Positions 43,228 to 43,384 of a stretch of 64,000 nt of DNA are shown here, in pieces. Below the pieces are notes generated by a model that worked only from the letters and a program-made list of their open reading frames with translations, was not told where the DNA came from and did no database searches. The stretch's first letter is position 1. Every line of letters starts with the position of its first letter. Source of the DNA: Escherichia coli (GTDB lineage Bacteria > Pseudomonadota > Gammaproteobacteria > Enterobacterales > Enterobacteriaceae); assembly GCF_048403405.1 (NCBI RefSeq), contig NZ_CP183129.1. One strand, given 5' to 3'. Made by a program: the position numbers and the translations under genes.

Positions 43228-43384
43228 GTGCGGGTTATGCGGGTTACCGGGTTATCTTAGCGTGCTAACTATTTTTTGTTCTTTAGTATCAATATGTTGC
43301 AAAATGCACTGTTCATTATTCAAGCATCGCATAACCCGCAAAACATCCCAAATAACCCGCAAACGCCCCAAAATAACCCGCAAA
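43228..43384. repeat. Iteron cluster A (candidate ori/crr)
   Basis: GTGCGGGTTAT-GCGGGTTAC-CGGGTTAT (43228-43255), then a 75-bp AT-rich spacer, then three ATAACCCGCAAA units at 43331, 43352 and 43373 (21-bp period). Confidence 0.7.

What the first reader, a model, noticed from the sequence alone, without database searches (positions are those of the whole stretch)
43228..43384. Iteron cluster A near attL, part of a two-site, mirror-image ori/crr-like arrangement
Seen in the sequence: three abutting GCGGGTTA(T/C) units (43228-43255) are followed by a 75-bp AT-rich spacer. Three inverted ATAACCCGCAAA units then follow, spaced exactly 21 bp apart (43331, 43352, 43373).

The same 9-12-bp motif occurs again only at 53609-53734, with the architecture flipped. 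The two clusters are about 10.3 kb apart and bracket the cargo operon and the ssb/proQ module.

Established knowledge: phage P4 needs two separated alpha-protein binding regions (ori and crr) built from short repeats.

Inference: these are the replication origin and cis-replication region of this element, bound by the 708-aa primase-helicase. The 21-bp (two helical turns) phasing suggests one-face cooperative binding.
Basis: partly seen in the sequence, partly recalled or inferred. Interest (0 to 1): 0.6.

Follow-up and report, generated by a model that had tools for sequence, protein, structure and literature searches.

The report
Split replication origin of a phage satellite
The repeat cluster is real: it is very probably the second half of the replication origin of a 19-kb phage-parasitic island, moved about 10 kb from the first half to sit beside the island's DNA-packaging site, an unusual layout of an otherwise known type of origin.

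Summary
All 11 exact TGCGGGTTAY copies in the 64-kb window lie in cluster A (43229-43384) or cluster B (53607-53733). The two clusters are mirror images: abutting iterons, an AT-rich spacer, then inverted iterons phased at 21 bp.

The element (42757-61781) is a Gram-negative phage-inducible chromosomal island (PICI), not a P4 relative. Its 708-aa DUF927 protein resembles the staphylococcal island Pri-Rep helicase and shows no similarity to P4 alpha.

Cluster B, 24 bp past the primase stop, is the already described PICI origin type. Across about 80 relatives:
- The iteron word changes more than 12 times and tracks the primase's C-terminal residues.
- An A-type unit with the same word lies next to B in about 43 loci.
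- It lies 0.2-10 kb away in 14 loci, covering 5 different words and always the same orientation.
- About 21 loci show no second unit.

An E. coli island shares A's flank but carries different iterons that match its own primase. In remote units the iterons are 94% conserved and the spacers 72-77%.

Cluster A starts 75 bp from a site homologous to the annotated cos site of phage P27.

Best reading: A is a displaced, Pri-Rep-bound second origin unit. The P4 ori/crr comparison is an analogy, not kinship. This is a new variant of a known kind.

The parts
43229..43255 (+). Cluster A, abutting iterons: TGCGGGTTAT, TGCGGGTTAC and an imperfect CCGGGTTAT
   Evidence: Invariant in 8 remote units of E. 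coli apart from one C/G position.
43256..43330 (.). Cluster A, AT-rich spacer (75 bp, 67% A+T). Inferred melting region.
   Evidence: Only 72% conserved among relatives, against 94% for the iterons.
43331..43384 (-). Cluster A, three phased iterons (TTTGCGGGTTAT on the - strand) at 21-bp steps
   Evidence: The 21-bp step is the commonest spacing family-wide (149 of 448 spacings).
43206..43226 (.). Conserved near-palindromic box TTTTTCGTATATATACAAAAC, just outside the abutting iterons of unit A. Function unknown; candidate easily melted or host-factor site.
   Evidence: Found 3-5 bp beyond the last abutting iteron in 21 of 43 adjacent and 10 of 14 split loci, and near the unit in only 1 of 21 single-unit loci. 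100% conserved in E. coli remote units. A similar box lies inside the origin of an island with an unrelated replicase (L088).
43109..43196 (.). cos-like packaging site. Window 43146-43154 (GAGGCGGCG) aligns to the annotated 10-nt cos site of phage P27.
   Evidence: Also aligns to a prophage gap between HNH and terS (L090).
53607..53671 (+). Cluster B, four iterons: three TTTGCGGGTTAY at 21-bp steps and a fourth 11 bp further on
53672..53714 (.). Cluster B, AT-rich spacer (43 bp, 70% A+T)
53715..53733 (-). Cluster B, two abutting inverted iterons, 24 bp beyond the primase stop codon
53757..55883 (-). 708-aa DUF927 primase-helicase (Pri-Rep), the inferred iteron-binding initiator. Its last ~60 residues co-vary with the iteron word.
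   Evidence: Pfam DUF927 E=2.5e-46. PDB 8tch 'Pathogenicity island protein' E=1.7e-14. PHROG 1139 DNA primase. Covariation.
42757..42763 (.). Left integration junction (attL core GAATCTG)
   Evidence: Comparison with the empty site in NZ_CP103479.1 and with the dinD/yicC copy.
61782..61788 (.). Right integration junction (attR core GAACATG)
60311..61579 (-). Tyrosine integrase with an arm-binding domain. Its likely arm sites are the ATGTACAY repeats at 42827-42846 and 61608-61659, a motif distinct from the iterons.
58974..59192 (-). AlpA-family regulator, a hallmark of Gram-negative PICIs
   Evidence: Pfam Phage_AlpA.

Best explanation
The window holds a 19-kb Gram-negative PICI, a phage satellite. 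Gene order on the - strand is int, alpA, Rha, AntA/B, icd, DUF4222, Pri-Rep, ssb, proQ and a late-gene-like cargo.

Its replication origin belongs to the SaPI/PICI type. Short iterons are read by the C-terminal domain of the island's own primase-helicase. They are arranged in two opposed sets around an AT-rich stretch, where the helicase is thought to load itself and melt the DNA.

In this protein family the origin normally has two such units in mirror symmetry, side by side just 3' of the gene:
- Unit B: abutting iterons, AT spacer, phased iterons.
- Unit A: phased iterons, AT spacer, abutting iterons, then a TATATA box.

In this island only unit B (53607-53733) remains next to the gene. Unit A (43229-43384, the finding) lies 10.2 kb away at the far end of the island. 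It keeps its orientation, sits 75 bp from the cos cleavage site and 472 bp from attL. The ssb/proQ/cargo region therefore lies between the two halves of the origin.

After excision, Pri-Rep would bind both units. Unit A would then serve either as a second helicase-loading site or as a distant partner that cooperates with B by looping.

Shown by computation: the anatomy, the homology of the protein, the covariation, the matching of A to B, the constraint on the iterons and the neighbourhood of cos. Inferred: binding, melting and any role of A in initiation.
For: 1. The clusters are real and unique to these two places.
2. The protein is a homologue of the SaPI Pri-Rep helicase. SaPI Rep binds iterons on both sides of an AT-rich region immediately 3' of rep, through a C-terminal winged helix (PMC9371898). 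The same organisation was reported for E. coli PICIs, and the EcCICFT073 pri-ori segment drives plasmid replication (PMC6092414).
3. In 78 loci from many Enterobacterales, the 8-10-bp word 3' of the gene takes more than 12 forms. Each form goes with its own C-terminal sequence.
4. An A-type unit with the same word follows B directly in about 43 loci. It lies 0.17-10 kb downstream in 14 loci with 5 different words (TGCGGGTTA, TGTTGGTTCA, CTTGTCCCA, CTTATCC, GGTCGGTT), always in the same orientation.
5. Natural swap. E. coli island L087 (and L006) share the window's cos and box flank at 86-87% identity, but the distal unit is built from GGGACAAG, the word of that island's own B unit and different primase.
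6. Constraint. In 8 remote units of E. coli, iteron cores are 94% identical to the window and the box 100%, against 72-77% for the spacers.
7. Both layouts are common in E. coli. Of 300 genomes with this iteron family, 141 have the units in one place and the rest in two.
8. The spacing geometry (9, 11 and 21 bp) is conserved whatever the word.
Against: - No experiment. Binding of Pri-Rep to either cluster is inferred.
- About 21 of 78 relatives show only unit B within 10 kb on each side, or less where the contig ends sooner. Unit A is therefore not universally required.
- One island (L012) carries an orphan distal A-type unit whose word does not match its primase. Distal units can persist as relics, at least when the proximal origin is complete.
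- Matching of A and B could partly reflect shared descent (a split of one origin) rather than ongoing selection.
- The conserved orientation is expected from simple insertion of DNA between the units.
- The structure model of the C-terminal domain was too poor (pLDDT 54) to confirm a winged helix.
Confidence: 0.62

Rival explanations
1. Cluster A binds Pri-Rep but is not an initiation site. It acts as a control element that titrates the initiator or pairs with B (handcuffing). It would then limit or time replication, like the extra iteron arrays of P1 (incA) or F (incC).
For: - It has the same iterons as the origin at a second place.
- Unit A is dispensable in about a quarter of relatives.
- Unit B alone meets the published definition of the origin (PMC6092414, PMC9371898).
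Against: - Unit A is not a plain array of direct repeats. It has the full origin anatomy: two opposed sets, its own AT-rich spacer and a conserved (TA)n box.
- In most relatives it is an integral part of the about 300-bp origin next to the gene.
- A satellite that must over-replicate after induction has no obvious need for negative copy control.
Confidence: 0.15
2. Cluster A is a functionless remnant. It was left at the end of the island when DNA (ssb and captured late genes) was inserted into, or recombined next to, a once contiguous origin. B alone does the work.
For: - The orphan mismatched distal unit in L012.
- About 21 loci have B only.
- The late zone of PICIs is known to be a dynamic region that captures phage genes (PMC10111431).
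Against: - Iteron cores are 94% conserved and the box 100%, against 72-77% for the spacers, in remote units that have diverged about 20%.
- In all 14 islands whose proximal origin lacks unit A, the distal unit matches, across 5 words.
- The same flank carries different, cognate iterons in L087 and L006.
- The split layout is present in roughly 150 complete E. coli genomes.
Confidence: 0.15
3. The repeats of cluster A are packaging signals, such as cosB-like R elements or a cosQ accessory. They would be read by the helper terminase or a redirecting protein, because they lie right beside the cos cleavage site.
For: - Cluster A starts 75 bp from the sequence that aligns to the annotated cos site of phage P27.
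- E. coli PICIs are known to have a non-phage cosB (PMC6739421).
Against: - In P27 and in prophage L090, terS lies on the other side of cos from where A lies. A is therefore not on the cosB side.
- The repeats are identical to those next to the primase and co-vary with the primase, not with any terminase.
- In about 43 relatives unit A sits next to B. In the two adjacent-type loci where a cos-like sequence was found (L036, L050), it lies 6.6 and 1.6 kb from the origin.
- Island L088 has the same cos flank with no iterons after it.
Confidence: 0.03
4. Cluster A is a set of integrase arm sites or a transcriptional operator/promoter near attL.
For: It lies in the 1.3-kb non-coding stretch between the last gene and attL.
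Against: - A different repeat (ATGTACAY) sits at both island ends and fits arm sites for the Arm-DNA-bind_3 integrase.
- Cluster B is 8 kb from attR.
- No sigma-70-like promoter was found at A, and an alternating TA run cannot give a -10 hexamer with A at position 2 and T at position 6.
- No gene follows A on the - strand.
Confidence: 0.03

Closest known systems
Replication origin of Gram-negative PICIs (EcCICFT073 and others; Fillol-Salom et al. 2018, PMC6092414) and of SaPIs (Rep/Pri-Rep origin; PMC9371898)
   Same: - Self-encoded primase-helicase with homology to SaPI Pri-Rep.
- Iterons in two opposed sets around an AT-rich region.
- Position immediately 3' of the gene (cluster B).
- Island gene order int-alpA-...-pri-ori-accessory.
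   Different: - The papers read here describe one region next to the gene.
- In this island a second complete unit with the same iterons lies 10.2 kb away at the far end, next to cos.
- Family-wide, the origin proves to be two mirror-image units, each with its own AT-rich spacer, plus a conserved TATATA box.
Phage P4 ori and crr, bound by the alpha primase-helicase (P4 record NC_001609). That both are required in cis and that alpha binds both is established knowledge recalled from memory (Flensburg and Calendar 1987; Ziegelin et al. 1993).
   Same: - Satellite of a temperate phage.
- Two separated clusters of the same short repeat recognised by a self-encoded primase-helicase.
- One cluster is immediately 3' of the gene.
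- Each P4 crr repeat shows the pattern two abutting, two inverted, one direct, much like a unit here.
   Different: - Unrelated protein: no shared Pfam domain, BLASTP E=0.11.
- Unrelated repeat sequence.
- In P4 the gene-adjacent site is crr (two direct 120-bp repeats) and lies next to attP, and the origin is the remote site.
- Here the units are inverted, and in most relatives they are contiguous.
Iteron plasmids with auxiliary iteron arrays (P1 incA, F incC). Recalled from memory.
   Same: Extra copies of the origin's iterons at a second place in the replicon, bound by the same initiator.
   Different: Those arrays are direct repeats without their own AT-rich region and act negatively. Unit A has the full origin anatomy.
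cos site of HNH-dependent cos phages such as Stx phage P27 (NC_003356)
   Same: Window 43109-43196 is 86% identical to the P27 region that holds its annotated 10-nt cos site.
   Different: This concerns the neighbour of the finding, not the iterons themselves. The island has no terS, terL or HNH gene of its own.

Membership tests
Gram-negative PICI (phage-inducible chromosomal island) | Integrase with specific attachment sites. Island of about 10-20 kb flanked by a short direct repeat. | tested here: met
   Integrase at 60311-61579. Junctions mapped against an empty site and against a second insertion site. Island of 19.0 kb.
Gram-negative PICI (phage-inducible chromosomal island) | AlpA-family regulator downstream of int, with unidirectional transcription of nearly all genes. 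| tested here: met
   Pfam Phage_AlpA at 58974-59192. All annotated island genes but two small ones are on the - strand.
Gram-negative PICI (phage-inducible chromosomal island) | Primase/replication initiator followed immediately by an origin made of two iteron sets flanking an AT-rich region. | tested here: met
   Cluster B begins 24 bp after the stop of the DUF927 gene. The definition comes from PMC6092414.
Gram-negative PICI (phage-inducible chromosomal island) | No full set of phage structural and lysis genes. Carries a cos or pac signal or a terS gene. | tested here: met
   No capsid, portal, terminase, tail or holin genes. Four internal-virion-like genes are present. A cos-like site is homologous to the P27 cos site.
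Gram-negative PICI (phage-inducible chromosomal island) | Induction, replication and high-frequency transfer by a helper phage. | not testable with these tools
   Needs experiments.
SaPI/PICI-type iteron origin, applied to cluster A itself | At least two iterons on each side of an AT-rich region, pointing in opposite directions. | tested here: met
   Three abutting (+) and three phased (-) copies around a 75-bp spacer of 67% A+T.
SaPI/PICI-type iteron origin, applied to cluster A itself | Located immediately downstream of the rep gene. | tested here: not met
   A is 10.2 kb from the gene in this island. The equivalent unit is next to B in about 43 of 78 relatives.
SaPI/PICI-type iteron origin, applied to cluster A itself | Iterons specific to the cognate initiator. 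| tested here: met
   Covariation of word and C-terminal residues. A matches B in 14 of 15 remote cases. Iteron swap with a conserved flank. Binding itself was not tested.
SaPI/PICI-type iteron origin, applied to cluster A itself | Supports initiator-dependent replication. | not testable with these tools
   Needs a plasmid replication assay.
P4-type ori/crr system | Alpha-type initiator (zinc ribbon, Toprim, D5_N, Pox_D5 DNA-binding domain). | tested here: not met
   P4 alpha has these Pfam domains. The 708-aa protein has DUF927 only. BLASTP between the two gives E=0.11.
P4-type ori/crr system | crr made of two direct 120-bp repeats with type-1 octamers; ori with type-1 and type-2 repeats. | tested here: not met
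   P4 annotation. Here there are two inverted units with 9-12-bp iterons of unrelated sequence.
P4-type ori/crr system | Two separated initiator-binding regions, both required in cis. | tested here: inconclusive
   Two separated regions are present. The requirement is not testable, and about 21 relatives seem to have one unit only.
Lambda-type cosB (terminase R elements) | Repeats lie between the cleavage site and terS, and are specific to the small terminase. | tested here: not met
   A lies on the HNH side of cos, opposite to terS, in P27 and L090. The repeats track the primase.

The most novel reading that the evidence does not exclude
The origin of this large satellite family may be built from two polar helicase-loading units that work at any distance from each other.

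In the split islands the whole accessory/late-gene module sits inside the origin. One unit is placed 75 bp from the cos cleavage site, so that it ends up at the very end of the packaged genome.

That placement could couple where replication starts to how packaging substrate is made. It could also mark the joint between the two units as the preferred place where these satellites capture phage genes.
Probability: 0.2. Interest if true: 0.7.

Novelty: new variant of a known kind. Interest (0 to 1): 0.5.

Why it matters
PICIs are abundant satellites that move virulence and defence genes, and their replication is what lets them out-compete the helper phage. Their origin has been treated as one small region next to the primase gene.

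If the second unit can act from 10 kb away, three things follow:
- It gives a natural system for asking how a self-loading Pri-Rep helicase is placed on DNA: one hexamer per unit, or cooperation by looping.
- It offers ready-made pairs of initiator and iteron (more than 12 specificities) for orthogonal replicons.
- It gives a simple sequence signature (a cognate iteron unit plus the TATATA box) for delimiting islands and their captured gene modules.

If it proves to be a tolerated leftover, it still documents how these islands are rearranged.

Tried and rejected
- tRNA scan of the window: no genes. The island is not in a tRNA gene.
- Rfam scan of the island with permissive thresholds: only two chance-level hits, none near A or B.
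- Promoter/terminator scan of 42700-44200: no promoter-like site at A. It did show a terminator of the cargo operon at 44060-44077.
- ORF listing of 42700-44100: nothing credible overlaps A.
- AlphaFold model of the C-terminal 119 residues with 25 homologues: pLDDT 54, so no fold search was run.
- PDB sequence search with the 138-aa protein (52193-52609), looking for an Rpp-like packaging redirector: no hit.
- Direct-repeat search for att sites in the split loci of other genera: only short, ambiguous repeats apart from L040, L044 and L030. 'Distal unit at the island end' is therefore firm only for the E. coli and E. albertii islands.
- Alignment of the cos-like stretch with the lambda cos junction: no meaningful alignment. 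The similarity to lambda cosN that I recalled is not supported, and the P27 cos annotation was used instead.
- An approximate regex scan timed out and was replaced by blastn.
- Literature searches found no description of a remote second iteron unit in PICIs. The library is incomplete, and figures such as Fig. 2a of PMC6092414 cannot be seen.
- Rejected: integrase arm sites, cosB elements and a dispersed host repeat (see rival explanations).

Full report
**1. The observation**

- The sequence is as described.
- GCGGGTTAY occurs 12 times in the 64-kb window against 0.88 expected. No shuffle reaches 12.
- With the preceding T, the 10-mer occurs 11 times exactly, all inside the two clusters.
- Cluster A has two perfect abutting copies and one imperfect one (43229-43255). 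These are followed by a 75-bp spacer of 67% A+T and three inverted ATAACCCGCAAA units at exact 21-bp steps (43331-43384).
- Cluster B has three TTTGCGGGTTAY units at 21-bp steps and a fourth 11 bp further on (53607-53671). These are followed by a 43-bp spacer of 70% A+T and two abutting inverted copies (53715-53733).
- Read on opposite strands the two clusters have the same architecture, so they are mirror images 10,223 bp apart.

**2. The element**

- Comparison with complete E. coli genomes shows a 19.0-kb island (42757-61781).
- Here it is inserted in the 3' part of a leucine-rich-repeat gene between cvrA/ldcA and dadX. An empty site exists in strain 4621.
- A 99.9% identical island sits between dinD and yicC in two other strains.
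- Nearly all genes are on the - strand. In order they are:
  - integrase with an arm-binding domain
  - a 216-aa protein
  - AlpA-family regulator
  - Rha
  - AntA/AntB
  - Icd-like
  - DUF4222
  - the 708-aa DUF927 primase-helicase
  - SSB
  - ProQ/FinO
  - a PerC pseudogene
  - four genes resembling internal virion (ejection) proteins of podophages
.
- This is the gene order of Gram-negative PICIs (PMC6092414, PMC10111431).
- Relatives fetched from E. coli include the capsid-forming island of O157:H7 (L005) and a helper-embedded island inside a prophage terL gene (L004).

**3. The protein**

- The 708-aa protein matches Pfam DUF927 and PHROG 1139 'DNA primase'.
- In the PDB it matches a staphylococcal 'Pathogenicity island protein' (8tch, E=1.7e-14).
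- SaPI Rep and Pri-Rep are self-loading helicases. Their C-terminal winged helix binds iterons placed on both sides of an AT-rich region immediately 3' of the gene (PMC9371898).
- The protein is not related to P4 alpha in any detectable way. BLASTP gives E=0.11 and no Pfam domain is shared.

**4. Cluster B is a known kind of origin**

- It starts 24 bp after the stop codon and has the published anatomy.
[quoted passage not shown] They also showed that the EcCICFT073 pri-ori segment drives plasmid replication (PMC6092414).

**5. What cluster A is: comparative evidence**

- I collected 80 loci encoding relatives of the protein (51-79% identity) from one genome per species, plus E. coli islands.
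- The commonest 8-mer in the 450 bp after the gene is a repeated iteron in nearly every locus. It takes more than a dozen forms: GTGGGTTA, CGTGGTTCA, TGTTGGTTCA, TGTTGTCTCA, CTTATCCCA, TTGTCCCA, ACGGGTTA, GGTCGGTTCA, GTCGGGTA, AGTGTGTCA, GTTGTACCA and others.
- Each word goes with its own sequence in the last ~60 residues of the protein. Examples:
  - DRRYKKKALGRIGGKQH with TGCGGGTTAT
  - GRGYQRKSPRIDGRQ with TGTTGGTTCA
  - GRGYQGRVREDGRQ with TGTTGTCTCA
- This is the pattern expected if that domain reads the iterons.

**6. Two layouts**

- In about 43 loci there are 9-13 iterons in about 300 bp. In the sense of the gene the order is: abutting copies, AT spacer, inverted phased copies (unit B); then phased copies, AT spacer, inverted abutting copies (unit A).
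- In 14 loci only unit B is next to the gene, and an A-type unit with the same word lies 0.17 to 10.1 kb downstream in the same orientation.
  - These loci are the window, L003, L004, L006, L009, L027, L030, L032, L040, L044, L061, L073, L083 and L087.
  - They cover five different words.
- About 21 loci show unit B only within the DNA available.
- In complete E. coli genomes with this iteron family, 141 have both units in one place. Most of the other 159 have them in two places.
- The O157:H7 island has A and B side by side.
- Same-strand spacings peak sharply at 9, 11 and 21 bp whatever the word.

**7. A natural swap, and constraint**

- E. coli island L087 (and E. albertii L006) shares the window's flank to the left of A at 86-87% identity.
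- Its distal unit is built from GGGACAAG, the word of its own unit B and of its different primase.
- In eight remote units of E. coli that have diverged by about 20%, identity to the window is as follows:

| Region | Identity to window |
|---|---|
| Adjoining box | 100% |
| Iteron cores | 94% |
| cos-like stretch | 89% |
| Between phased iterons | 77% |
| AT spacer | 72% |

- These sequences are related, so this is not a formal test. It does argue against free decay.

**8. Counter-evidence**

- L012 (Serratia oryzae) has a complete proximal origin (B+A, CTTATCCCA). It also has an orphan A-type unit made of GAACCAAC 6.2 kb downstream, homologous to the distal unit of L032.
- An unbiased scan for any clustered both-strand 8-mer found no other mismatched A-type unit.
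- So a distal unit can survive a change of replication module as a relic.
- In all 14 islands where the proximal origin lacks unit A, the distal one is cognate.

**9. The neighbourhood: cos and a conserved box**

- The cargo operon ends at a terminator at 44060-44077. The stretch 42757-44055 has no credible gene, RNA family or promoter at A.
- Directly outside the abutting iterons lies a near-palindromic box (43206-43226, TTTTTCGTATATATACAAAAC). It accompanies unit A in both layouts and is nearly absent from single-unit loci.
- A similar box lies among the iterons of an island with an unrelated RepA-family replicase (L088). Its role is unexplained.
- Further left, 43109-43196 is 86% identical to the region of Stx phage P27 that holds its annotated 10-nt cos site. 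That site aligns to window 43146-43154.
- In P27 and in prophage L090, terS lies on the side away from A.
- Cluster A therefore begins 75 bp from the predicted cleavage site, on the side that becomes the far end of the packaged DNA.
- The cos-like stretch and unit A are separable:
  - L088 has the flank without iterons.
  - L036 and L050 have adjacent-type origins, with the cos-like stretch 6.6 and 1.6 kb away.
- The likely integrase arm sites are a different repeat (ATGTACAY) at both ends of the island.

**10. Mechanism**

- Most likely (about 0.6): cluster A is the displaced second unit of a bipartite PICI origin. It is bound by the island's Pri-Rep through its C-terminal domain and takes part in initiation. 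It does so either as its own loading and melting site or by cooperating with B at a distance.
- On the excised circle the two units are 10.2 and 8.5 kb apart.
- Rivals are:
  - a Rep-binding control site (0.15)
  - a tolerated relic (0.15)
  - a packaging signal (0.03)
  - arm sites or an operator (0.03)
- Binding, melting and any effect on replication are inferences.

**11. Comparison with known systems, and novelty**

- As to how it works, the closest parallel for a two-site arrangement is P4 ori/crr. The P4 record shows crr immediately 3' of alpha and next to attP. Each crr repeat has octamers in a pattern much like a unit here.
- As to membership, the P4 family fails on the protein and on the repeat structure.
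- The element is a PICI, and B is a standard PICI origin.
- Three things were not found in the papers I could read:
  - the origin of this family is two mirror-image units plus a box
  - the second unit can lie up to 10 kb away beside cos while keeping cognate iterons
  - both layouts are common in E. coli
- I rate this a new variant of a known kind, with interest about 0.5.

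Noticed in passing
window 44091-51523 (- strand): The island's cargo is four genes resembling podophage internal virion/ejection proteins. They are an 873-aa SLT-domain protein (PHROG 1044), a 565-aa protein (PHROG 3003), an 850-aa protein (PHROG 684, virion structural protein) and a 186-aa protein (PHROG 11983). 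They sit where related islands carry capsid, portal and terminase genes. This looks like capture of phage late genes by a satellite that has no capsid genes of its own.
   Followed up: partly
window 43109-43196: A cos-like site. It is 86% identical to the phage P27 region containing its annotated 10-nt cos site, which aligns to window 43146-43154. It is also similar to the HNH-terS gap of an E. coli prophage (L090). The island has no terminase or HNH gene, so it would depend on a helper with this packaging type.
   Followed up: yes
window 43206-43226; also L088 23741-24151: A conserved near-palindromic box, CTTTTG-(TA)n-CAAAAG. It is placed 3-5 bp outside the abutting iterons of unit A in many genera, and also lies among the iterons of an island with an unrelated RepA-family helicase. 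It cannot form a canonical -10 hexamer, and its function is unknown.
   Followed up: partly
window 42757-42763 and 61782-61788; L001, L002: The same island (99.9% identical) uses two chromosomal sites. Here it lies inside the 3' end of a leucine-rich-repeat gene next to dadX, cutting the protein from 478 to 448 aa. In two other strains it lies between dinD and yicC. The cores differ (GAACATG here, GAATCTG there), and the left junction here lacks 2 bp expected from a clean exchange. This is probably a secondary site.
   Followed up: partly
window 42827-42846 and 61608-61659: ATGTACAY repeats (two at the left end, four at the right end; 12 in the window against 3.1 expected). They are probably arm-type sites for the integrase, which has an Arm-DNA-bind_3 domain.
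   Followed up: partly
L012, about 6.2 kb downstream of the primase gene: An orphan A-type origin unit made of GAACCAAC iterons, in a Serratia oryzae island whose primase and proximal origin use CTTATCCCA. It is homologous to the distal unit of the Serratia island L032. This is evidence that replication modules are exchanged between islands while the distal part stays.
   Followed up: partly
L032, about +5.0 to +5.3 kb from the primase stop; also L019, L030, L031, L038, L079: Clusters of GGTACGCA repeats (both orientations) and, in L032, GTTTCCAC repeats just beyond the distal origin unit. They may be packaging or integrase sites of those islands.
   Followed up: no
L028 (Yersinia pekkanenii), 5.7 and 1.1 kb upstream of the primase stop and just downstream of it: Three iteron clusters of the same word within about 6 kb, together with an unusually long primase match. 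This suggests tandem or partly duplicated islands.
   Followed up: no
window 56435-57472 (- strand): A 345-aa open frame spans what RefSeq annotates, in the identical island, as a 111-aa Icd-like gene plus two small + strand genes (YlcI/YnfO family). It has no Pfam hit, and which reading is right is unclear.
   Followed up: no
window 43385-44055: About 670 bp between cluster A and the terminator of the cargo operon has no annotated gene, no credible ORF and no RNA family hit. In the capsid-forming relative L004, the terL stop codon lies only about 80 bp from unit A.
   Followed up: no
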